A stretch of DNA of 64,000 bases from positions 7,468 through 71,467 of the forward strand of contig CAYSZJ010000002.1 in the NCBI GenBank assembly GCA_964435435.1, read 5' to 3'. The notes beneath the pieces are model-generated. The model made no database searches and was not told the DNA's origin. It was given only the letters and a program-made list of their open reading frames with translations. The stretch is from an uncultured archaeon. GTDB taxonomy: Archaea; Asgardarchaeota; Lokiarchaeia; Sigyniarchaeales; SOKP01. The position numbers were made by a program, and so were the translations under genes. Shown one piece after another: positions 16,918 through 32,826 of this stretch. Each line of letters begins with the position of its first letter. Position 1 is the stretch's first letter.

Positions 16918-18088
16918 ATGATCACAAATATCCTTAAAACAAATGATTTTGAACCAATTCTTCTCACAAAAGCTAAAGTTTCGTGGATTTATTTGGGATG
17001 TAAATGGGAAAAGATATCTAGACTGCGAATCAGGTATGTGGTGTGTAAATTTAGGTCATAATCATCCAAAAATAATACACGCTATAAAAAAACAATTAGA
17101 TAAATTGATGCATCGAAATAAGGGTTTTCTGACTCCTATTACTCTTGAAGCTGCTGAAAAATTGTTGAAGTTTTTTCCAAATGAATATGATAGACTTACA
17201 TTTTTGAATAGTGGAAGTGAAGCAATAGAATTTGGAATTTGCTTTGCTAAAAAAGTAACTGGTCGCAATAAAATACTTTCTCTTCAAGATTCTTATTTGG
17301 GAGCTTATGGTATAGCAAAAAATTCATCATATACATCCTCAGAAGATCAAAAATTTAAAGTTCCTTATCCAATATGCGATTCAGAAAAATGTGACTGCCT
17401 TGAGAAATATAAACCTATAATTGATGAAGTTTTTCATAATTTTTCATCTGATATTGCATGTTTTGCTCTAGAACCAATAATGGTAAGTGGAGGTGTGTTA
17501 AAGCCATGTAAAAATTACATCCAATATATTTGTAATAAAATACATAATATTAGTGGTTTAGTTGTAATAGATGAGATAACAACTCGTATGGAAAGAGCAG
17601 GTCTTAAATTTGGATAAGAACTTTATGATATTGCTCCAGATGATGTTGTTCTTGGCAAAGCTTTAGGCAATGGGTATCCTGTAAGTGCAATTATAACTAA
17701 TTCTTCTTTGGAATCGAAATTAACATCATCTGAATTATATTATGCTCAATCTCATCAATTAGATCCATTAGGTGCTGCTGTTGTCAAATCTGTAATTGAG
17801 GTATTTACTGAAGAACAAATTATTGAAAAAAGTCAGCAAAAAATCCATAAATTTAATGAGTTCTTACAAACGCTCAATTACCCATTTATTAGGGATATAA
17901 GATCATATGGAATGATTTTTAGCATTCAGATCAAACCCTACAATGAGATGTCGGCTGAGGAATTAATCTTAAAAATAAAAAATCAATTACTTGATGCAGG
18001 AATAATAATTGGATTTAATTTAAGTAGAGCATTCATACGTCTATTATTTCCATTAAATATCCAAAACGTTGAAATAGAATTTTTATAA
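16918..18088 (+). pseudogene. class III aminotransferase pseudogene (frameshift, in-frame TAA, degenerate motif)
   Basis: MITNILKTNDFEPILLTKAKV is encoded from ATG 16918 in one frame and continues as RGFIWDVNGKRYLD in the next frame, with an extra nt near 16983. A TAA at 17615-17617 splits ..DEITTRMERAGLKFG*ELYDIAPDDVVLGKALGNGYP. The canonical TGxGRTG motif reads TRMERAG. Confidence 0.75.
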
Positions 18089-24817: not shown

Positions 24818-25264
24818 TTGAAAGAACTCTATGAATTAGGTTTTGTATTTCGAGGATTTGTTCTTGTTAATCACAACTTTAAGGGTTTACCTATTCAAAA
24901 GGAGCATGGTGTCACAGAAGATCTTAGAGGCGCATTTATTTCTGCTATAAACGCTTTTGCTGATACTGCTTTTAATAAAAGCTCATTAGAATATTTAGAA
25001 TCTGGAAATATCTTATTCATTTTTAAAATAGCTGAAGTTCAATCAATAGATAATAATATTAAAGAATCTTTAATCTTATATGGCTTAGTAGATAAATCAA
25101 AAAAGAAATCAGATAAACTTGTAAGAAAATTTTTTGAAAGAGTCGAACCAATGCTTCAATTATTTATACAAAAGTTTAATACGGCAAATTTTTCAGAATT
25201 AAACCAATTTGAATCTTTTAAAGAAATAATGAAAGATTTTTTTGTAAAAAAAACACAAGAGTAA
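24818..25264 (+). CDS. longin/roadblock-like small protein (tentative)
   Basis: 148-aa ORF with a TTG start. The beta-beta-alpha-beta-beta-beta-alpha-like pattern (GFVFRGFVLVNHNF..AFISAINAFADTAF..GNILFIFKI..LILYGLVD..LVRKFFERVEPMLQLF) resembles longin domains and the ORF at 31353. Confidence 0.4.
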   Translation: MKELYELGFVFRGFVLVNHNFKGLPIQKEHGVTEDLRGAFISAINAFADTAFNKSSLEYLESGNILFIFKIAEVQSIDNNIKESLILYGLVDKSKKKSDKLVRKFFERVEPMLQLFIQKFNTANFSELNQFESFKEIMKDFFVKKTQE

Positions 25265-26956
25265 TTACTCAACAAGACTCCAACCTTTTGGTGCGGATCT
25301 AGAATAAATTAATCTGCCTTGTGCTTTTAGGTTATTAATTTCTTTTTCAATATCCTTAACTTCAAAACCTTTTGATTTTATGTCAATAACAAATTCAGCT
25401 TTAGTAGCAACAAGTTTATTCTTTTTTAAGTATTCGATAATTACTTCTAGTAAGGATTTATCTAAACTTACTCCTTCTTTTAAAGAGATATCTTTTGCTT
25501 CAGTGCTTAATACAGCACTCAATTTTTCTTTATCTGTTTTAATTGGTTCTTCAATTACCATATGTTTAACCGCAACTTTAGGTTTCTCAACTGGTGTTTT
25601 AACTATAACCTTTGGTTCTTTAACTCGTGCTTCCATTTCAACTTTTCCTCCTGTCTCTTCCTCTGGCAAGCTCCAGACGGAATATTCCATTTTTTCATAG
25701 GATACTGATTTTTGTGTTTTTAACACTGTGAACTCTTCTAATATCTCATCTTCTGAATAACCTAATTTTGTTAACTCTGATACTAGGTCTTTCATATAAC
25801 CTTTTTCAGTTAAATAGTTGAAAATATGTTCTCGAATGTTAGTCGGTACCTCTTTAACTTCAGCTATCTCTTCAATTTTCCTTTCTTTTTCAGTTGGTTC
25901 TACTTCGGGTATTTTTATTTGTTGAGGAATCTCAAGAGATTGTTTATCTCCCCATTCAAAATCCGTAACAATTCTAATTGCACGATCATACCCTCCAAAT
26001 ACAATATTTTTCTTGTTTTCTCTTCTATCTAATTGATAACATATATGCTTAATTGAGGTAGCTACTTTTGTCTTCCATTTTAACTCAATATCCGTAGAAC
26101 TAAGAGAAGGATTATGAAATACCTTTAATGACCCATCTGCGCACCCCGCAACAATTTCATTTGCATTATCACCATCTATATCTTCTATTAATAGTGCTAT
26201 AGGGCGACCTTCCTCGGTTTCAATCTCTTTTATAGGTTCTCCTTCCACATTAAGGATTTTAATCGTAGAGTCATCAGCACTTAAAACTATTTCATTGTAT
26301 CCATCATTTGTTACATCGCCAACTTTAATATCATTTATTTGAGTGTTAAAATTCTTTGACCAAATTATATCGGGGAACCCCTCTTTAAATTGAATTAATT
26401 GTATTACACCACTTTTCGTACCAACTAATAATCCATATATAGAGAATTCTTCATCTGGTAATTTTAAATATCCTAATGTACAAGTAGTTACCCAAGAATC
26501 ATAATATAATATAAATTTTGGCTCTTTTGCTTTGATACTATCAAATATTTTTAGAGTTTTATCTTCACTACCAAATAATAATTCTATATTTCCATCTCTA
26601 GTAAAGTCTCCAGCAATACAACAAGTAACTCTATTAGAGGCCTTGTACCGCATTAGACCTACAAGCTTCTTCTTTTCCTCATTTAATTTTAAAACCATAA
26701 AACTCCCTTCGCCAGCGCCTACTAACACTTCATCACAACCGTCACCATCAAGATCTATAGGATAACTACATCTACACCATCCATCAAAAGATCTACCATC
26801 AACAATATTCATCTCTTCGTCCAATAAATAAAGGGTTTTATCATGTCCTCCAAAAACTAAATAATTCTTTTCTTTGCATCTTAATACTGAGCAAGTTAAC
26901 ACAGCGTCAGGACATTCAAACATAAATTTTAGTTGATAGCGTTTTCTAATAGCCAT
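25265..26956 (-). CDS. seven-bladed FG-GAP/WD-like beta-propeller protein with two C-terminal winged-helix-like domains
   Basis: 563-aa ORF. Repeats include IDLDGDGCDEVLVGAGEGSF, GDFTRDGNIELLFGSEDKTLKIFD, GDVTNDGYNEIVLSADDSTIKILN, EDIDGDNANEIVAGCADGSLKVFH and VFGGYDRAIRIV. The C-terminus has IFNYLTEKGYMKDLVSELTKLGYSEDEI and IIEYLKKNKLVATKAEFV..LKAQGRLIY. No signal peptide. Confidence 0.6.
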   Translation of the reverse strand: MAIRKRYQLKFMFECPDAVLTCSVLRCKEKNYLVFGGHDKTLYLLDEEMNIVDGRSFDGWCRCSYPIDLDGDGCDEVLVGAGEGSFMVLKLNEEKKKLVGLMRYKASNRVTCCIAGDFTRDGNIELLFGSEDKTLKIFDSIKAKEPKFILYYDSWVTTCTLGYLKLPDEEFSIYGLLVGTKSGVIQLIQFKEGFPDIIWSKNFNTQINDIKVGDVTNDGYNEIVLSADDSTIKILNVEGEPIKEIETEEGRPIALLIEDIDGDNANEIVAGCADGSLKVFHNPSLSSTDIELKWKTKVATSIKHICYQLDRRENKKNIVFGGYDRAIRIVTDFEWGDKQSLEIPQQIKIPEVEPTEKERKIEEIAEVKEVPTNIREHIFNYLTEKGYMKDLVSELTKLGYSEDEILEEFTVLKTQKSVSYEKMEYSVWSLPEEETGGKVEMEARVKEPKVIVKTPVEKPKVAVKHMVIEEPIKTDKEKLSAVLSTEAKDISLKEGVSLDKSLLEVIIEYLKKNKLVATKAEFVIDIKSKGFEVKDIEKEINNLKAQGRLIYSRSAPKGWSLVE

Positions 26957-27173
26957 AATTCAATAATGTTACTTTTGATAATCCAATTTTTCTATGTTTA
27001 TTAAACTTAATTTTTTTGTTAATTCTTTTAACAATTATTCAAAAATTTATTAAGCTGTTATTGTAAATAAACTTAAACTTATTTTATGTATGTTGAACCT
27101 TAATAAAAAGGAATTCACAGATTTATTAATTCCATTTAAAAAATAAAAAAAATAAAAAAAAATATTTTTAGAT

Positions 27174-29327
27174 TTAAAACGCAAGTTGGGCATCTGATGG
27201 ACTGTATTTTCCTTTTCCAGTTATTTCATAAGAGATCTCTAATTTATCTTCTGGTTCCAACGTTTCAATTTCCCATTTTAAAGTATCTGCTCCAACTTCA
27301 TCAGTAATCTCTGGTGTCATAGAATATTCCGAATATTCGAACAAATCGGGTACTTTGTCTAAAAGAATTAGGTGAAATAGCTTAGATTCTCCAATATTTT
27401 CAACAGACAAGATAATTCTGTAATGTCCAAGATCTCCAATGGGTATAACTTCTTTTCCAATACGGAATTTTCTTCTAATATGTAGAGCTTCAATAACAGG
27501 GACTTCTGGTTTAAATTCTAACTCTTGACTAATTGGAAAGGTATTAGCAAGATACATTATTTCAGATTCAAATGTAGATTCTCGTGCAGGATTTATACAG
27601 TGAATGGGATATTCAAATTCTAAGGTAGATTCGGGCATAAACATGCCTGTGGAACTGTCTTTTAAATCTTTAAGGTCTATCTTAAATACATTATCTTCAA
27701 GACTTACTGCTCCTGAAGAAACTTCAACTTCTTCACCATCCCATAGCAATTTTATTTCATCTGCTTTTGGTGGTTGATATTCATCAGAGAAATATTGTTG
27801 GACCACAGAGACTTCATTTAATGGAGCTGAACCGTTATTAACTATTTTAAGAGATGCAGTTACATCTCTCTCTCGATAAGTAGGGACTTCAGTTAGATTA
27901 TATTCCATTACTCCTGTGATACTACCAATCTCTAATATGACATCTGAAAGAGAAACTGTCCCATTGACGATTGTTTGAAAATCGGGCATTACTCTAAATT
28001 CTAGTTTTTTCCTGAAGGTTGGATATTCGTCACTTTCAAATTCCCATTTTGTAGAATGCCATTGAGCGCCATTTGGTAATAGAGGCACATCATTAGGGTC
28101 AATATCTACGAATTTTTTAGATTCATCGTCTGGAGAATAAACATCAGCATTAAAAAGTTGAATTATGAATTCCGAGGCATTATCAAATACAAGTTTACAA
28201 TCAAAAAATCCAGGTTCCTCGTCTCTTTCAACTGTATCAACATAAAATTTATTTCTTGTATATGCATCGAATTTATCTATTGCCAATCCTTCAGCAAAAG
28301 AAGATGCTCCTTGATAAGTGATTTCTATTGTTCCTGTTTTTCTTTTGGTAATATCTGTAACCATTATATTACATGTAAATTTCAACATCACTGTATATTC
28401 AGGAGCTAATTTGTCAATTGTCCAAACGATTGTATTCCCTTCAATTTCAGCTCTTCCTTCACTAGTGTCTCTAATTGTAGGATTACTGAAATCGTCAGTT
28501 ATACTTTTTACTACTTTGATATTCGAAATAGGTTTATCAAACATACTTCTAAGTGCAATAGCAAAAGTAACAACATTTTCTTTATCAATTGAGATACCAA
28601 AAGATTCTAAACCACTTTCAACGCTAGTTCCACCATCTTCCCATGTTTCTCCTTCTTCATCTTCTTCCTCCTCTTCTTCCTCTTCTTCTTCCACTACAGC
28701 GGGTTTTACCGTGTTTGGAGATTTAGAAGAAGCTTCACCAGTTTTATCCTTTAATTTTAATAATTCCATCTCAATATCATTGATATTTAGAACTGAATCG
28801 GCGTCCGGAAGTGTACAAATGAATTCTTTTACAAGTAAAAGATTTTTTATATCTTTTGTTATTTTAAAATCTCTTGAATCAACATTTTCTGGTTCTTCAG
28901 TGCCTAATTCTTGTATTGAAATCTCTTTAGATTTTAAATTTGTACTTCCTATATTTTCAAGTGAAACATCAATGTCCCACAATCTATCAACTTTACTTGG
29001 ATTTTCTATGTTTAATTTTCCAGCATGGGTAAATGATTCTATATTACCATCATGATCCTGTGCTACGTCTACATCTTCAATAATTTTTACTAATGCTAAT
29101 AGGCCTTCTCTATTTCCATTTTTCAACATGATACTACCTTCGAGTTTCCCTGTATCCTCATCATATGTCTCAATAACTGGGGTGGCCGTATCTCTATCAA
29201 TCAATTCCACAAGACCAGTGTCTAAATCTTTTCTTTTCAATGCTTCAGCTATTAATTCTTCTTCAGCTTCTGTTGTATCCCAACCCACTCGCGATGGTGG
29301 CTTTTTCTTTTTATCTTTCTTTCCCAT
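27174..29327 (-). CDS. large cytoplasmic protein with about four CARDB/DUF11-like beta-sandwich repeats and a poly-Glu tract
   Basis: 717-aa ORF. Lys-rich N-terminus MGKKDKKKKPP and the tract VEEEEEEEEEEDEEGE. Repeats follow the pattern ..SVENIGESKLFHLILLDKVPDLFEY..LKWEIETLEPEDKLEISYEITG. No signal peptide or TM segment. Confidence 0.5.
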   Translation of the reverse strand: MGKKDKKKKPPSRVGWDTTEAEEELIAEALKRKDLDTGLVELIDRDTATPVIETYDEDTGKLEGSIMLKNGNREGLLALVKIIEDVDVAQDHDGNIESFTHAGKLNIENPSKVDRLWDIDVSLENIGSTNLKSKEISIQELGTEEPENVDSRDFKITKDIKNLLLVKEFICTLPDADSVLNINDIEMELLKLKDKTGEASSKSPNTVKPAVVEEEEEEEEEEDEEGETWEDGGTSVESGLESFGISIDKENVVTFAIALRSMFDKPISNIKVVKSITDDFSNPTIRDTSEGRAEIEGNTIVWTIDKLAPEYTVMLKFTCNIMVTDITKRKTGTIEITYQGASSFAEGLAIDKFDAYTRNKFYVDTVERDEEPGFFDCKLVFDNASEFIIQLFNADVYSPDDESKKFVDIDPNDVPLLPNGAQWHSTKWEFESDEYPTFRKKLEFRVMPDFQTIVNGTVSLSDVILEIGSITGVMEYNLTEVPTYRERDVTASLKIVNNGSAPLNEVSVVQQYFSDEYQPPKADEIKLLWDGEEVEVSSGAVSLEDNVFKIDLKDLKDSSTGMFMPESTLEFEYPIHCINPARESTFESEIMYLANTFPISQELEFKPEVPVIEALHIRRKFRIGKEVIPIGDLGHYRIILSVENIGESKLFHLILLDKVPDLFEYSEYSMTPEITDEVGADTLKWEIETLEPEDKLEISYEITGKGKYSPSDAQLAF

Positions 29328-29484
29328 TATTCATTCCCAAGTTTTTAATTATATTTTGCTAGATTGAAAATTATTTAAGGTTTAATAAAATTTAATGTAG
29401 ATAAAATAAATTCAACAAGATTCCTTAAAAAACTTTTTACTGGACAATAGTGTTATTGAAAAAAAACTATAGCTAATACTCCTT

Positions 29485-29688
29485 TTATATGAATTTATAA
29501 TCATTTTCGCTTGGTCTTTTAGGAATAACATCTGGGTCAATGAATTTATAACCACACATTGGACAGATTTTAACTTTCTTATTAGTTTTCGGATCAATAG
29601 ACCTAAAACTAAAACCACATCGGGGGCAAATTCTAACTGAATGGTTTAATATCCTTTTTATTTTAATTTTTTTCTGATTTTTTTTCAT
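29485..29688 (-). CDS. zinc-ribbon protein
   Basis: 67-aa ORF with CPRCG..17 aa..CPMCG. Preferred over the overlapping 29412-29618 ORF. Confidence 0.55.
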   Translation of the reverse strand: MKKNQKKIKIKRILNHSVRICPRCGFSFRSIDPKTNKKVKICPMCGYKFIDPDVIPKRPSENDYKFI

Positions 29689-29722: not shown

Positions 29723-31147
29723 TTATTTTAATATTAAAATTAAGATAAGATCATTTACATTACAACCCGTAGGACCTGTGATTATCTCATTATTTAATAA
29801 TTTGAAAAAGCTATTAGAATTATTTTTAGCTAAGTATTTCTTAGAATCTAATTTTTTAGAAATAATCTGATTAACTGTAAAATTATCTATTAATGCGCCC
29901 ATTGCTTTGCTATTACCCTCGATACCATCAAGATTAGCTCCAATAATTAAAAATTCATAATCAATTTCACTTTTTTCTATATGATCAAGAAAACTTAATA
30001 ACATCTCTTGATTTCTACCCCCAATTCCTTTTCCTTGTATTGTTACAGTTAATTCACCTGTGCCAATTAGAGCTAGTCTCAGTGTATTTACGTGTTCTTT
30101 AATTTTTTGAGGTAAAATTCTTCTTAGAGACTTTCCAAATTCTCTTGCTTCACCAGCAATCTCATTAGAAAAATTTTCAACTTGAAATCCTTGTTCTTTT
30201 AAATATAATGTTATCTCCTTAACTGCGGATTTTACACTCCCTATTAAGCAATTATACACATTTTTAAAGCAAGGATCATTAGGTTTAGGGTTTTCTAACA
30301 CCTTATTAGAAATTCCTTTTATTAGTATTTCTTTAACTGATTTGGGAATTTTTTCAAGAAGTTTATATTTTTTTAAAACATCTATTGCATTCTTGAAAGT
30401 TGTCGAATCTGGTATAGTTGGACCAGAAGCAATCGAATCTAAATTATCTCCTACAACGTCAGAAATTATTAAAGAAATTAAAGCAGCTGCACTTATATCA
30501 TAGATTTTTTTTGCAAGATTGCCCCCTTTAAAATCTGATAAATGTTTTCGAACAGTATTTATTTCATGGATGGATGCCCCACAATCTAAAAGAAGAGAAT
30601 TAGCAATTTGGAGATCTTCTAGAGTAATACCTTGCTTTGGTAAAGTTAGTAAAGCAGAACCTCCCCCAGAAATTAAACAGAAAATTAAATCTTTCTTACC
30701 TGATTTTTCTATAATTTCTATCATGGATTTAGTCCCGTTCAATCCAGTTTCATTAGGGATTGGGTGCGAAGCATAATTAATTGAAATATTGCTTTTTACC
30801 TGTATTTCGTGTTTTAAAGATTCTTTAGGAATATTAATAATCCCCTCATACTCAATATTTTCAATACGAGATAGGATCTTTTCAAGCGTAAATGCCATCT
30901 CAGCAGTAGCTTTGCCACCACCAATGATATAGATTTTATTAAAGCTTTCTAAATCATATTCTTTATCATTTATAATTAGAGTTTTTTCTAGAACTTTAAT
31001 TGACTTTTCCATTAAGATACTAGGTTTTACCGCTGAAATTGCTTTTTCAAGTGAGCTCAACCCTATTTTTCTCAGCGATATTTGATTTTGATCCAATTCA
31101 CGTAAAAGAAGTTGAGATGTATTTCTAATATACAATACACAGATCAC
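29723..31147 (-). CDS. glycerate 2-kinase / hydroxypyruvate reductase-like (DUF4147 + MOFRL)
   Basis: 474-aa ORF. IIGGGKATAEMA, LISGGGSALL, SGPT and the C-terminus GGRNQE..TDGIDG-like (GANLDGIEG), TGPTGCNVNDL. Confidence 0.8.
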   Translation of the reverse strand: MICVLYIRNTSQLLLRELDQNQISLRKIGLSSLEKAISAVKPSILMEKSIKVLEKTLIINDKEYDLESFNKIYIIGGGKATAEMAFTLEKILSRIENIEYEGIINIPKESLKHEIQVKSNISINYASHPIPNETGLNGTKSMIEIIEKSGKKDLIFCLISGGGSALLTLPKQGITLEDLQIANSLLLDCGASIHEINTVRKHLSDFKGGNLAKKIYDISAAALISLIISDVVGDNLDSIASGPTIPDSTTFKNAIDVLKKYKLLEKIPKSVKEILIKGISNKVLENPKPNDPCFKNVYNCLIGSVKSAVKEITLYLKEQGFQVENFSNEIAGEAREFGKSLRRILPQKIKEHVNTLRLALIGTGELTVTIQGKGIGGRNQEMLLSFLDHIEKSEIDYEFLIIGANLDGIEGNSKAMGALIDNFTVNQIISKKLDSKKYLAKNNSNSFFKLLNNEIITGPTGCNVNDLILILILK

Positions 31148-31818: not shown

Positions 31819-32826
31819 TTATCTGTAAATCCCTTCTGGCAATTCTTTTATAGCTTCCTTATAAGATTTTTTAGCTTTATCTGCTCCTTTTTTTATCTTT
31901 TCAATAGCTTTTTCAAAATCTTCATGAGAAATTTTAATTTTTGAATAGGAGTTATGATTTAATACATCAATATCATTTTGAAATACTCCTTTTCGAATTG
32001 CTAAAATTGTAGCTTCTTCACATACTGCTTTAATATCTGCACCAGTATAGCCTTCTAATTTTTCAGCTAATAATATAATATCAATATTTTCATTAATAGG
32101 GCGATCTTTTAGATGAATTTTTAATATTTCTAAACATGCATCTTTATCAGGAAGAGGTATTTCAACATGTCTGCCAAATCTGCCTGATCTTAGTAGAGCA
32201 GGATCAAGTAAATCAGGTCTATTCGTTGCTGCAACTAATATAACATCTCTTAATTCCTCTAAGCCATCCATTTCAGTTAGAAGCTGGGCAACAACCTGTT
32301 CTTCTACAGTTGAACCTGAAATACCTGAACGTCTAGAAGCAATTGCATCTATTTCGTCAAAAAAAATTATGCAAGGAGCAGCAGATCTTGCTTTACGGAA
32401 TGTTTCTCGAACAGCTTTAGCACTTTCCCCCACCCATTTAGATAAGAATTCTGGGCCTTTAATTGAAATAAAATTAACTTCTGTTTCGTGAGCAAGAGCT
32501 TTAGCTAGTAAAGTTTTGCCAGTGCCCGGAAGACCATATATTAAAATTCCATTTGGAGGACTAGATTTCATATATTGATAAAATCCAGGGTATTTTAAAG
32601 GCCATTCAATTATTTCTTTTAATTGTTGTTTAGCATCCTCCAATCCACCAATATCATCCCATGTTTCTGTGGGTTGAGTGATCAATACTTCCCTTAAAGC
32701 TGAAGGCTCGATACTATTTAAAGCTTCTATAAAATAACTCAATTTAATCTTTAATTGATTTAAGACTTCTTCTGGAATTGGCTTATCAAAATCGATTTCG
32801 GGAATTATTTCCCGAATTGCAAGCAT
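31819..32826 (-). CDS. AAA+ ATPase, CDC48/VCP D2-type, 5'-truncated
   Basis: Walker A GLPGTGKTLLAKA, Walker B IIFFDEID, second region of homology. The 24 codons upstream of the first ATG (32827-32898) still read LKLIAEKTHGFVGADIESLCKESA, which is the end of a D1 domain. They stop at a TAG 7 nt from the neighbouring gene's stop. Confidence 0.8.
   Translation of the reverse strand: MLAIREIIPEIDFDKPIPEEVLNQLKIKLSYFIEALNSIEPSALREVLITQPTETWDDIGGLEDAKQQLKEIIEWPLKYPGFYQYMKSSPPNGILIYGLPGTGKTLLAKALAHETEVNFISIKGPEFLSKWVGESAKAVRETFRKARSAAPCIIFFDEIDAIASRRSGISGSTVEEQVVAQLLTEMDGLEELRDVILVAATNRPDLLDPALLRSGRFGRHVEIPLPDKDACLEILKIHLKDRPINENIDIILLAEKLEGYTGADIKAVCEEATILAIRKGVFQNDIDVLNHNSYSKIKISHEDFEKAIEKIKKGADKAKKSYKEAIKELPEGIYR

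What the first reader, a model, noticed from the sequence alone, without database searches (positions are those of the whole stretch)
24818..29688. Uncharacterised cytoplasmic locus: Zn-ribbon, multi-beta-sandwich/poly-Glu protein, FG-GAP propeller with two wHTH domains, convergent longin-like ORF
None of the four products has a recognisable enzymatic domain, signal peptide or TM segment.

The 563-aa protein has seven blades that mix FG-GAP-type DxDxDG..E(I/L)(L/V).G loops with WD-like D(K/S)T(L/I)KI(F/L) strands, followed by two winged-helix-like domains. From memory, the blade motif GDFTRDGNIELLFGSEDKTLKIF closely resembles BBS2/BBS7-type propellers (DFDGDGK.ELLVGSED..IRVF). This comparison is unverified.

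A propeller, stacked beta-sandwiches and a longin-like protein recall eukaryotic coat or adaptor parts lists. This is the most system-like block of unknown function in the window.
Basis: inference. Interest (0 to 1): 0.65.

Follow-up and report, generated by a model that had tools for sequence, protein, structure and literature searches.

The report
Conserved Asgard adaptor-like three-gene module
An Asgard (Lokiarchaeia-type) archaeon keeps three cytoplasmic genes strictly together, and their products resemble building blocks of eukaryotic vesicle-adaptor, BBSome and KICSTOR complexes, so this is a testable candidate for a pre-eukaryotic adaptor-like complex whose function is still unproven.

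Summary
All four ORFs are real and intact, and none has a signal peptide or TM segment. B (563 aa) is a 7-bladed FG-GAP/WD-hybrid propeller. It scores above Pfam cut-offs for BBS7 propeller, BBS2_Mid and Itfg2. In PDB its profile hits only ITFG2, BBS7 and BBS2. Two winged-helix-like modules follow the propeller.

C (717 aa) is a beta-sandwich array containing a mu-homology-domain (MHD)-like unit. This rests on a near-cut-off Pfam hit, Foldseek TM 0.6-0.75 to AP mu2/mu1/mu3A, and a family profile that hits only AP-3 mu in PDB (E 3e-8). Eme et al. 2023 already list C's family as an Adap_comp_sub candidate.

A (148 aa) has longin strand/helix order, but only in a low-confidence model with weak fold hits. 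D is a Zn ribbon that one subclade has lost.

The order glycerate kinase-(D)-C-B-A holds in all 62 species-level Promethearchaeota loci retrieved, while the downstream flank falls into 17 families.

I read this as a cytosolic adaptor/scaffold-like complex. Domain identities and linkage are shown. Complex formation and function are inferred. I found no paper describing the propeller or the linkage.

The parts
24818..25264 (+). Gene A: 148-aa small alpha/beta protein, convergent with B and abutting it. Predicted order is beta-beta-alpha-beta-beta-beta-alpha-alpha (longin order).
   Evidence: ORF. Listed homologues are 76-100% identical. AF2 model has pLDDT 52.7 with this topology. The Foldseek top hits are almost all longin/roadblock proteins, but at E 0.009-0.16. 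No Pfam or PDB sequence match. Adjacent to B in every locus whose contig reaches.
25937..26956 (-). Gene B, residues 1-340: 7-bladed FG-GAP/WD-hybrid beta-propeller of the ITFG2/BBS2/BBS7 type.
   Evidence: Pfam Beta-prop_BBS7 67.4 bits, FG-GAP_3 45, BBS2_Mid 44, Itfg2 35.6, WD40 30.5. PDB profile hits are only ITFG2 (1.4e-8), BBS7 (0.011) and BBS2 (0.035). Blade motifs.
25667..25852 (-). Gene B, residues about 369-430: first winged-helix-like module (VPTNIREHIF...YEK..Y.VWSL).
   Evidence: Alignment A4. Weak DUF5333 and LisH hits. Helix-helix-helix-wing pattern read from the sequence.
25265..25456 (-). Gene B, residues about 501-563 plus stop: second winged-helix-like module ending in the conserved YSRxxPKGWSL (Y, S, P, G, W, L invariant).
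   Evidence: Alignment A4. MCM5_C winged-helix hits in 10 of 23 orthologues, best E 2.4e-5 and below cut-off; the stretch they cover is not given. The module occurs in one to several copies in distant homologues P0377 and P0398.
29103..29327 (-). Gene C, residues 1-75: polybasic start (KKDKKKK) followed by a conserved acidic segment, not confidently modelled.
   Evidence: pLDDT about 30, yet mean column conservation is 0.80.
28728..29099 (-). Gene C, residues 77-200: N-terminal beta-sandwich. Residues about 162-176 align to the first strand of the AP-3 mu MHD.
   Evidence: AF2 pLDDT mostly 63-82. The family alignment shares the G.L.I.N.S...R.W motif with Jord-, Hel- and Hermod-archaeial proteins. 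hmmsearch alignment to 4ikn_A.
28590..28727 (-). Gene C, residues 201-246: acidic poly-Glu linker. It is an insertion seen only in the four close C orthologues of alignment A5.
   Evidence: pLDDT below 50. Least conserved region, 0.64. Absent from the nine Eme-table sequences placed in alignment A5.
28254..28580 (-). Gene C, residues 250-358: core of the mu-homology-like unit. It also matches DUF11.
   Evidence: Pfam Adap_comp_sub 29.5 bits (cut-off 31.6) and DUF11 27.2 bits (cut-off 24.6). pLDDT mostly 84-91. Foldseek to AP mu MHDs at E about 1e-8, TM(target) 0.6-0.75. The family profile hits only AP-3 mu in PDB, E 3.2e-8.
27996..28253 (-). Gene C, residues 359-444: the most conserved stretch (AYTRNKF, W/FDCK..F.N.SEF, DIDPNDVP, GAQWHS), poorly modelled.
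   Evidence: Conservation 0.89, the highest in C. pLDDT below 50. The W.C...F.N.SEF motif is shared across most of the Asgard family.
27174..27995 (-). Gene C, residues 445-717 plus stop: further beta-sandwich domains.
   Evidence: AF2 pLDDT mostly 65-90, all-beta. Weak NCBIfam DUF11-type repeat hit at residues 640-671. Low-TM Foldseek hits to integrin-alpha legs and Streptococcus AgI/II.
29485..29688 (-). Gene D: 67-aa Zn ribbon (CPRCGFSF...CPMCGYKF). A facultative neighbour upstream of C.
   Evidence: Pfam UPF0547 36.8 bits. A CxxC...CxxC ORF sits at this position in 41 of 56 loci. It is absent or degenerate in 15, including a subclade.
29723..31147 (-). Glycerate-kinase-type gene (DUF4147 + MOFRL), an invariant upstream neighbour 34 nt from D. 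Membership in the module is uncertain.
   Evidence: Pfam. Present upstream of D/C in every locus whose contig reaches, 47-72% identity.

Best explanation
The locus encodes a cytosolic, non-enzymatic protein module specific to Lokiarchaeia-type Asgard archaea. Its three constant members probably assemble into one soluble adaptor/scaffold-like complex.

**Proposed roles.**
- C is the recognition subunit. It has a mu-homology-like beta-sandwich unit, the fold that binds short peptide motifs in AP mu, delta-COP and the muniscins. Extra beta-sandwiches flank this unit. It also has a polybasic N-terminus, a poly-Glu linker, and two highly conserved but unmodelled segments that look like docking sites.
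- B is the scaffold. It has a 7-bladed ITFG2/BBS2/BBS7-type propeller and two winged-helix modules that would dock partners or drive oligomerisation.
- A is a small longin/roadblock-like subunit. Proteins of this type dimerise and couple such complexes to small GTPases in eukaryotes.
- D, the Zn ribbon, is an accessory that some lineages have lost.

**Shown:** gene integrity, domain identities for B and C, cytosolic character, strong purifying selection, and strict gene linkage.

**Inferred:** physical association, motif or membrane binding, and any link to GTPases or membrane remodelling.
For: - B: Pfam BBS7 propeller, BBS2_Mid and Itfg2 are all above cut-off. PDB-wide profile hits are restricted to ITFG2, BBS7 and BBS2. 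A distant family member gives the same top hits, ITFG2 then BBS2.
- C: Adap_comp_sub scores 29.5 bits, E 5.9e-7. Many of the 50 listed Foldseek hits are AP-1/2/3 mu MHDs with TM(target) up to 0.75. A profile of the wider Asgard family hits only AP-3 mu in PDB, at E 3.2e-8.
- A: the model has longin strand/helix order, and the weak fold hits are almost exclusively longin/roadblock proteins.
- None of the proteins has a TM segment or signal peptide.
- Linkage: GK-(D)-C-B-A is kept in all 62 species-level loci whose contig reaches, down to 43% identity for B. The gene downstream of A falls into 17 unrelated families and the gene upstream of GK into 6.
- Constraint: C orthologues are 61-87% identical and A 53-85%. 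The best-conserved part of C is a segment the model cannot place, as expected for an interface.
- Independent literature proposes that Asgard archaea hold AP building blocks, including this C family.
Against: - No experiment or complex prediction shows that A, B and C touch each other.
- The genes have 157-217-nt AT-rich spacers with T-runs, and A is convergent, so they need not be one operon.
- The metabolic glycerate kinase is just as constant a neighbour, so part of the linkage could be frozen synteny within one class.
- C also matches the prokaryotic DUF11 repeat in 60 of 60 orthologues but Adap_comp_sub in only 8 of 60. The window protein is 2 bits below Pfam's MHD cut-off.
- In the weak alignment, the Asp that binds the Tyr of YxxPhi in mu2 appears not to be conserved (my reading).
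- A has no significant sequence or structure match at all.
- No small GTPase or membrane protein lies in the neighbourhood.
Confidence: 0.45

Rival explanations
1. The genes are functionally independent. Their adjacency is inherited synteny within one archaeal class, and the eukaryote-like domain matches reflect promiscuous repeat folds (FG-GAP/WD propeller, Ig-like or DUF11 sandwich).
For: - Glycerate kinase is equally conserved next to them.
- The upstream flank has only two major families in 46 of 50 loci, so that side of the region is generally stable.
- Each gene has its own long AT-rich spacer with T-runs.
- All loci retrieved come from the Promethearchaeota lineage and were found with very specific peptide patterns.
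- B-like propellers are a large family, with 2415 representatives at E<=1e-3.
Against: - A stays glued to B at zero or negative spacing while the gene beyond it changes 17 times.
- Order holds down to 43% identity for B.
- All three proteins are under unusually strong constraint for 'hypothetical' proteins.
- PDB hits for B and for the C family are highly specific, not generic.
Confidence: 0.25
2. The module acts on nucleic acid or chromatin rather than in trafficking. B would be a propeller scaffold with DNA- or RNA-binding winged helices, D a nucleic-acid-binding Zn ribbon, and C an acidic chaperone-like partner with its poly-Glu tract.
For: - B's C-terminal region gives weak hits to the MCM5 C-terminal winged helix (10 of 23 orthologues), HTH_Crp_2 and HTH_68. 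Distant homologues hit PaaX, Mnd1 HTH and DUF5817_CT.
- Paralogues give sub-threshold hits to the RSE1/DDB1/CPSF1 propeller.
- D resembles transcription-type Zn ribbons such as TFIIB, Elf1 and TFS4, all weakly.
- C is very acidic, with 150 D+E.
Against: - All these hits are below family cut-offs.
- Winged helices are also common protein-protein modules. From general knowledge, examples are ESCRT-II, cullins and DEP domains.
- The WH module varies from one to several copies on flexible linkers, which looks like docking beads rather than a DNA-reading head.
- D is dispensable in a subclade.
- The significant matches, to the MHD and to BBS/ITFG2, point to cytoplasmic scaffolds.
Confidence: 0.15
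3. C and B are cell-surface or adhesin-type proteins (DUF11 repeats, integrin-like FG-GAP propeller) whose secretion signals were missed.
For: - DUF11 hits in 60 of 60 C orthologues.
- Foldseek hits to integrin-alpha legs and streptococcal AgI/II adhesin.
- FG-GAP Ca-binding-type loops in B.
Against: - No hydrophobic N-terminus or TM segment in any of the proteins, and the N-termini are charged and conserved.
- The adhesin and integrin matches have TM of only 0.11-0.30, against 0.6-0.75 for the MHD.
- B has 11 Cys including invariant positions, plus winged-helix modules.
- The closest sequence relatives of B in PDB are the cytoplasmic ITFG2, BBS7 and BBS2, not integrins.
Confidence: 0.03

Closest known systems
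Mu-homology domain of adaptor-complex medium subunits (Pfam PF00928; AP-2 mu2, AP-1 mu1, AP-3 mu3A; also delta-COP, stonins and muniscins)
   Same: - All-beta fold, matched by Foldseek at E about 1e-8 with TM(target) 0.6-0.75.
- Sequence-profile similarity: Pfam 29.5 bits for C, and the Asgard-family profile against AP-3 mu at E 3.2e-8 over C residues about 162-359 and mu3A 178-397.
- The shared motif G.A......N.IVW.I is my reading of the alignment and of the mu2 sequence as I remember it.
   Different: - No N-terminal longin (Clat_adaptor_s) domain is fused.
- Mu carries about 80 residues that the Asgard proteins lack.
- C adds an N-terminal sandwich, a poly-Glu insertion and further C-terminal sandwiches.
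- The window protein is below Pfam's cut-off.
- The YxxPhi-binding Asp appears not to be conserved (tentative).
- No large adaptin subunits are encoded nearby.
BBSome propeller subunits BBS2, BBS7 (and BBS1, BBS9), and ITFG2 of the KICSTOR complex
   Same: - 7-bladed FG-GAP-type propeller with WD-like strands.
- Pfam BBS7, BBS2_Mid and Itfg2 are above cut-off.
- These are the only significant PDB sequence hits.
- Family members also reach the BBS1 and PHTB1_N (BBS9) cut-offs.
- Like them, B is cytoplasmic and non-enzymatic.
   Different: - B has no coiled-coil, GAE or platform domains as BBS2/7/9 have. It carries two winged-helix modules instead.
- It is longer than the propeller-only ITFG2 (447 aa).
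- Similarity is at repeat level, 16-37 bits against PDB chains. Orthology to any one eukaryotic protein is not established.
- No KPTN-, SZT2- or ARL6-like partner was identified.
Longin/roadblock superfamily small subunits (sigma-adaptin, Sec22b/Ykt6 longin, LAMTOR, NPRL2; Asgard Roadblock-Longin proteins such as PDB 8yqg)
   Same: Size is about 150 aa. Predicted order is beta-beta-alpha-beta-beta-beta-alpha-alpha. The weak Foldseek hits are almost all from this superfamily.
   Different: No hit reaches E<=1e-3. There is no Pfam or PDB sequence match. The model's pLDDT is only 52.7.
Asgard ESP gene clusters, e.g. the LAMTOR1-like / Rab-like GTPase / DENN operon (Liu et al., bioRxiv 10.1101/2020.10.19.343400), and the Asgard AP-domain candidates of Eme et al. 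2023 (PMC10307638)
   Same: This is a conserved neighbourhood of proteins whose domains are otherwise typical of eukaryotic trafficking or signalling complexes. C's family is itself in Eme et al.'s Table S3.
   Different: The combination of MHD-like protein, BBS/ITFG2-type propeller and longin-like protein, and its strict linkage, are not described in any paper I could search. No GTPase is in the cluster.
DUF11 (PF01345) conserved repeat domain of prokaryotic surface proteins
   Same: C residues 250-331 score 27.2 bits (cut-off 24.6), and all 60 orthologues match.
   Different: There is no signal peptide or anchor. The DUF11-like sandwich is embedded in a unit that superposes on the whole two-subdomain MHD, and a family profile that reaches AP-3 mu.

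Membership tests
Adaptor-complex mu subunit / Adap_comp_sub (PF00928) | Pfam PF00928 score at or above the gathering cut-off (31.6 bits) | tested here: not met
   The window protein scores 29.5 bits, E 5.9e-7. Only 8 of 60 orthologues match at E<=0.01, best 1.8e-8.
Adaptor-complex mu subunit / Adap_comp_sub (PF00928) | Two-subdomain all-beta mu-homology fold | tested here: met
   Foldseek against PDB: mu2, mu1 and mu3A C-terminal domains at E 7e-9 to 1e-7, TM(target) 0.58-0.75, rmsd 3.4-9 A. The model is confident (pLDDT mostly 84-91) over residues 250-358 but below 50 over 359-444.
Adaptor-complex mu subunit / Adap_comp_sub (PF00928) | Significant sequence-profile relationship to solved mu subunits | tested here: met
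   A profile of C plus Jord-, Hel-, Hermod- and Loki-archaeial relatives (A5) hits only AP-3 mu in PDB, E 3.2e-8, 36 bits.
Adaptor-complex mu subunit / Adap_comp_sub (PF00928) | N-terminal longin (Clat_adaptor_s) domain fused to the MHD | tested here: not met
   No such Pfam hit. The N-terminus is an unmodelled segment followed by a beta-sandwich. Eme et al. likewise found no protein with both domains.
Adaptor-complex mu subunit / Adap_comp_sub (PF00928) | YxxPhi-pocket residues; assembly with large adaptin subunits | tested here: inconclusive
   In the weak alignments the position of the Tyr-binding Asp is Leu in C (my reading). Assembly cannot be tested with these tools.
BBS2/BBS7 (BBSome propeller subunits) | BBS-type beta-propeller (PF23743, PF14783) above cut-off | tested here: met
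   Beta-prop_BBS7 scores 67.4 bits and BBS2_Mid 44 bits, both against cut-off 27. PDB BBS7 E 0.011 and BBS2 E 0.035.
BBS2/BBS7 (BBSome propeller subunits) | C-terminal coiled-coil, GAE and platform domains | tested here: not met
   No Pfam hit to BBS C-terminal families in B or in 17 distant homologues scanned. The C-terminus is two winged-helix-like modules.
ITFG2 (KICSTOR) | Pfam Itfg2 (PF15907) above cut-off and best PDB relative | tested here: inconclusive
   B scores 35.6 bits (cut-off 27), but the best stretch covers only residues 254-282. ITFG2 is the top PDB hit, at E 6e-6 for the single sequence and 1.4e-8 for the profile. Similarity is at repeat level.
ITFG2 (KICSTOR) | Propeller-only architecture (about 447 aa) with KPTN and SZT2 partners | tested here: not met
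   B is 563 aa with two extra modules. No KPTN- or SZT2-like gene lies in the locus. Partnership is not testable here.
Longin domain | beta-beta-alpha-beta-beta-beta-alpha-alpha sandwich with a significant match to known longins | tested here: inconclusive
   The topology is present in an AF2 model of pLDDT 52.7. Best Foldseek E is 0.009, TM 0.35-0.55, and hits are nearly all longin/roadblock. No sequence match.
Zn ribbon UPF0547 (PF10571) | Two CxxC knuckles and a Pfam score above cut-off | tested here: met
   36.8 bits against cut-off 29. CPxCGFSF...CPMCG is conserved in 41 of 56 loci.
DUF11 (PF01345) | Pfam score above cut-off | tested here: met
   27.2 bits against cut-off 24.6 at residues 250-331. 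60 of 60 orthologues match, best E 3.3e-12.

The most novel reading that the evidence does not exclude
A, B and C form a prokaryotic heteromeric adaptor/coat-like complex. It would be related by descent to the stock from which eukaryotes drew AP-mu/delta-COP MHDs, the BBSome and KICSTOR (ITFG2) propellers, and longin subunits. It would work with an Asgard small GTPase in cargo or membrane recognition or in nutrient signalling. That would make it a living 'proto-adaptor'.
Probability: 0.15. Interest if true: 0.9.

Novelty: new variant of a known kind. Interest (0 to 1): 0.6.

Why it matters
How eukaryotic coat, adaptor and GTPase-regulator complexes arose is a central open question in eukaryogenesis. 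Work so far reports Asgard homologues of AP domains as scattered and unlinked (Eme et al. 2023). A 2025 study found only Sec23-like and epsilon-COP-like coat precursors among COPI and COPII.

Here an MHD-like protein is locked in a conserved neighbourhood with a BBSome/KICSTOR-type propeller and a possible longin subunit, in every Lokiarchaeia-type genome retrieved. That gives a concrete, small set of soluble proteins to co-express, model as a complex and localise.

It also adds the BBS/ITFG2 propeller type to the list of eukaryote-like parts in Asgard archaea. The DUF11-MHD overlap hints that the MHD may derive from a prokaryotic sandwich repeat.

If the proteins turn out not to interact, the finding reduces to three well-conserved domain homologues.

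Tried and rejected
- **A, sequence identification.** Sequence and profile searches of A against PDB found nothing significant. Pfam on 54 A orthologues gave no longin family, only a sub-threshold ABC-3C MC4 hit.
- **C, direct PDB searches.** The single sequence and the close-orthologue profile found nothing. Only the widened family profile worked.
- **B, C-terminal region.** The profile search against PDB gave only low-complexity matches.
- **More distant gene neighbourhoods.**
  - Alignments A5 and A6 were too divergent for the pattern scan.
  - So co-occurrence beyond the lineage sampled is untested.
- **Rosetta-stone fusion.** P0371 (1021 aa, B fused to a 488-aa N-terminal extension) shows no similarity to C and no Pfam hit in the extension.
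- **Defence system.** PADLOC gives no hits except a trivial Zn-ribbon match.
- **RNA genes.** Rfam and tRNA scans of the window are empty.
- **Paralogues.** None of A, B or C elsewhere in the window.
- **KICSTOR architecture.** The searchable library did not yield its structural description.

Full report
**1. Observation**

The four ORFs are present exactly as described:
- A: 24818-25264 (+), 148 aa
- B: 25265-26956 (-), 563 aa
- C: 27174-29327 (-), 717 aa
- D: 29485-29688 (-), 67 aa

The window is about 30% G+C. The closest proteins and loci all come from Promethearchaeota, that is Asgard MAGs of Lokiarchaeia type.

Pfam and NCBIfam find no enzymatic domain in any of the four. The maximum 19-residue hydropathy is 0.39-1.28 and all N-termini are charged, so no TM segment or signal peptide is apparent.

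Each protein has hundreds of homologues. The listed ones are highly similar:
- B: 63-100% identical
- C: 68-100% identical
- A: 76-100% identical

That is unusually tight for 'hypothetical' proteins.

**2. Protein B**

Residues 1-340 contain about seven blades. FG-GAP-type loops (a strict DxDxDG at residue 68, others read by eye at about 116, 213 and 259) alternate with WD-like strands at 39, 132, 229 and 324.

Pfam scores, each above its cut-off of about 27 bits:

| Family | Bits |
|---|---|
| Beta-prop_BBS7 | 67.4 (E 1.8e-18) |
| FG-GAP_3 | 45 |
| BBS2_Mid | 44 |
| Itfg2 | 35.6 |
| WD40 | 30.5 |

A profile of 58 orthologues was searched against all PDB sequences. It hits only these:
- ITFG2 of KICSTOR, E 1.4e-8
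- BBS7, E 0.011
- BBS2, E 0.035

No integrin or bacterial FG-GAP protein appears.

The wider family is large. There are 2415 representatives at E<=1e-3 and 408 at E<=1e-10. The 17 distant members I scanned give a similar Pfam signature. Some also reach the BBS1 or BBS9 (PHTB1_N) cut-offs. None has BBS-type C-terminal domains. Only three of those I looked up carry a taxonomic name, and all three are Asgard.

The C-terminal 200 residues of B form two helix-helix-helix-wing modules joined by a variable K/E/P/V-rich linker. The second ends in the conserved YSRxxPKGWSL.

Support for 'winged helix' is weak. MCM5_C matches in 10 of 23 orthologues and DUF5333 in 12 of 23, all below cut-off. In distant full-length homologues at 23-27% identity, this module occurs in one to several copies.

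**3. Protein C**

The AF2 model has mean pLDDT 65.
- Confident beta-sandwich domains: residues 77-200, 250-358 and 445-714.
- Low-confidence segments: 1-75, 201-246 (the poly-Glu linker) and 359-444.

Pfam gives two overlapping hits:
- Adap_comp_sub (the mu-homology domain): 29.5 bits, E 5.9e-7, cut-off 31.6, at residues 249-360.
- DUF11: 27.2 bits, cut-off 24.6, over the same stretch.

Foldseek against PDB returns many AP-2 mu2, AP-1 mu1 and AP-3 mu3A C-terminal domains. These score E about 1e-8 with TM normalised to the target of 0.58-0.75. Integrin-alpha legs and streptococcal AgI/II reach TM of only 0.11-0.30.

Eme et al. 2023 (PMC10307638) list 44 Asgard 'Adap_comp_sub' candidates in their Table S3. 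These include a clear orthologue of C (Lokiarchaeales_Bin_204) and relatives in Jord-, Hel- and Hermod-archaeia.

I aligned C residues 77-480 with nine of those sequences and four orthologues. The resulting profile hits only AP-3 mu in PDB, at E 3.2e-8. It aligns C residues about 162-359 with mu3A residues 178-397. Mu carries an extra 80 residues or so.

C is therefore an MHD-like protein. It fails two defining features of true mu subunits: the Pfam cut-off, narrowly, and the fused N-terminal longin domain. All 60 orthologues match DUF11 and only 8 match Adap_comp_sub at E<=0.01. The family therefore sits between a prokaryotic sandwich repeat and the eukaryotic MHD.

The best-conserved part of C is residues 359-444 (0.89 mean column conservation), and residues 1-75 are also conserved (0.80). 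These are the parts the model cannot place. That would fit interaction surfaces, though a shallow MSA could also explain it.

**4. Protein A**

The AF2 model is poor (pLDDT 52.7). Its order of elements, beta-beta-alpha-beta-beta-beta-alpha-alpha, is that of a longin domain.

No Foldseek hit reaches E<=1e-3. However, most of the 50 listed hits (E 0.009-0.16) are longin or roadblock proteins:
- SEAC-EGOC
- LAMTOR
- a Lokiarchaeota Roadblock-Longin protein
- Sec22b and Ykt6
- KICSTOR-GATOR1 chains
- C9orf72/SMCR8

Sequence methods find nothing. 'Longin-like' is therefore a reasonable but unproven label.

**5. Protein D**

D is a Zn ribbon: UPF0547 at 36.8 bits, with CPRCGFSF...CPMCGYKF. An ORF with this pattern lies between glycerate kinase and C in 41 of 56 loci. 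It is missing or degenerate in 15, including a whole subclade. It is a facultative neighbour, not a fixed component.

**6. Linkage**

A scan of one genome per GTDB species found 62 loci. In every locus whose contig reaches, the order is glycerate kinase-(D)-C-B-A, with A convergent and abutting or overlapping B.

| Protein | Identity to window protein across loci |
|---|---|
| C | 61-87% |
| B | 43-83% |
| A | 53-85% |

As a control I clustered the flanking genes:
- Downstream of A: 17 unrelated families in 54 loci.
- Upstream of the kinase: 6 families in 50 loci, two of them dominant.

So the block is kept through many rearrangements, most clearly at the A-side boundary.

Caveats:
- All loci come from the Promethearchaeota lineage.
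- The kinase is as constant as the rest.
- The genes have 157-217-nt AT-rich spacers with T-runs.
- Attempts to reach more distant neighbourhoods failed.

**7. Mechanism**

My best reading, at about 0.45, is a soluble hetero-oligomeric adaptor/scaffold:
- C recognises a peptide motif or surface through its MHD-like unit. Its polybasic N-terminus and acidic linker may be regulatory.
- B is a propeller scaffold whose WH modules dock partners.
- A is a small longin/roadblock-type subunit.

Domain identities, cytosolic character, constraint and linkage are shown. Association and activity are inferred.

Rivals:
- Independent genes held by synteny: 0.25.
- A nucleic-acid or chromatin role, suggested by the WH modules, the Zn ribbon and the acidic tract: 0.15.
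- Surface or adhesin proteins: 0.03, contradicted by the lack of signals and by the low-TM adhesin matches.

Defence-system and RNA-gene explanations were excluded.

**8. Novelty**

C's MHD similarity is already in the literature as a table entry. The text there says the AP-like domains are sparsely distributed and not fused to each other.

Searches pairing Asgard with BBSome, Bardet-Biedl, ITFG2 or FG-GAP returned nothing relevant. The 2026 structure-based ESP survey does not mention BBS, ITFG2 or propellers in its main text, and its supplements were not available. I found no description of the three-gene linkage.

I rate it a new variant of a known kind, namely an Asgard eukaryote-like trafficking or signalling gene cluster, with interest 0.6.

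Noticed in passing
window 16943-18088 (+): A class-III aminotransferase is split into two same-frame ORFs (16943-17617 and 17708-18088) by one in-frame TAA at 17615-17617. Read by eye from the DNA, the frame continues straight into the PLP-lysine motif ...PDDVVLGKALGNGYPVSA. This could be a pseudogene, a sequencing error or read-through.
   Followed up: partly
window 29723-31147 (-): A glycerate-kinase-type gene (DUF4147 + MOFRL) lies only 34 nt upstream of D. It is as invariant a neighbour of the module as its own members, at 47-72% identity in every locus whose contig reaches. Whether that is functional or frozen synteny is unknown.
   Followed up: partly
window 25265-25456 (B residues 501-563); proteins P0377, P0398: The C-terminal winged-helix-like module, with signature YSR(S/T)xPRG(W/Y), occurs in one to several copies on long linkers in distant B homologues. 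This suggests a distinct, mobile WH family with no Pfam model.
   Followed up: partly
window 28254-28580 (C residues 250-358): The same stretch matches both prokaryotic DUF11 and the eukaryotic mu-homology domain. By my reading it shares the motif G.A...N.IVW.I with mu2 and mu3. This hints that the MHD may descend from a DUF11-like sandwich via Asgard intermediates.
   Followed up: partly
window 27996-28253 and 29103-29327 (C residues 359-444 and 1-75): Residues 359-444 are the best-conserved part of C (0.89) and residues 1-75 are also conserved (0.80). These are the segments AlphaFold cannot place (pLDDT below 50). They may be interfaces that fold on binding, or the shallow MSA may be to blame.
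   Followed up: no
rep-search hits P0400, P0402, P0407 and others (about 1500-1700 aa); P0401 (4740 aa, 32 matched stretches): The B-type blade recurs in very large proteins with many matched stretches, of unknown taxonomy. One JGI source names P0400 'BamB / AlkC'.
   Followed up: no
window 31819-32826 (-): A 335-aa protein has a single AAA+ module and lid (Pfam AAA 160 bits). Its sequence looks to me like a lone Cdc48/VCP D2 domain with no N-domain. It neighbours the kinase only here and in the closest relative, L003.
   Followed up: no
Eme et al. 2023 Table S3, entry Lokiarchaeales_AMARA_7: One C-like sequence carries a much longer acidic insertion. It contains a stretch that resembles a SAP/HeH motif to my eye (...WTVDELKEHCRELGITLPPKAKKADIINLI...). 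The linker is evidently a hot spot for insertions.
   Followed up: no
window 26957-27173 and 29328-29484: The spacers after C and after D begin with long T-runs, such as TTTTTTTTTATTTTTTTTATTTTTT directly downstream of C's stop. These look like archaeal terminators, so C and B may be separate transcription units.
   Followed up: no
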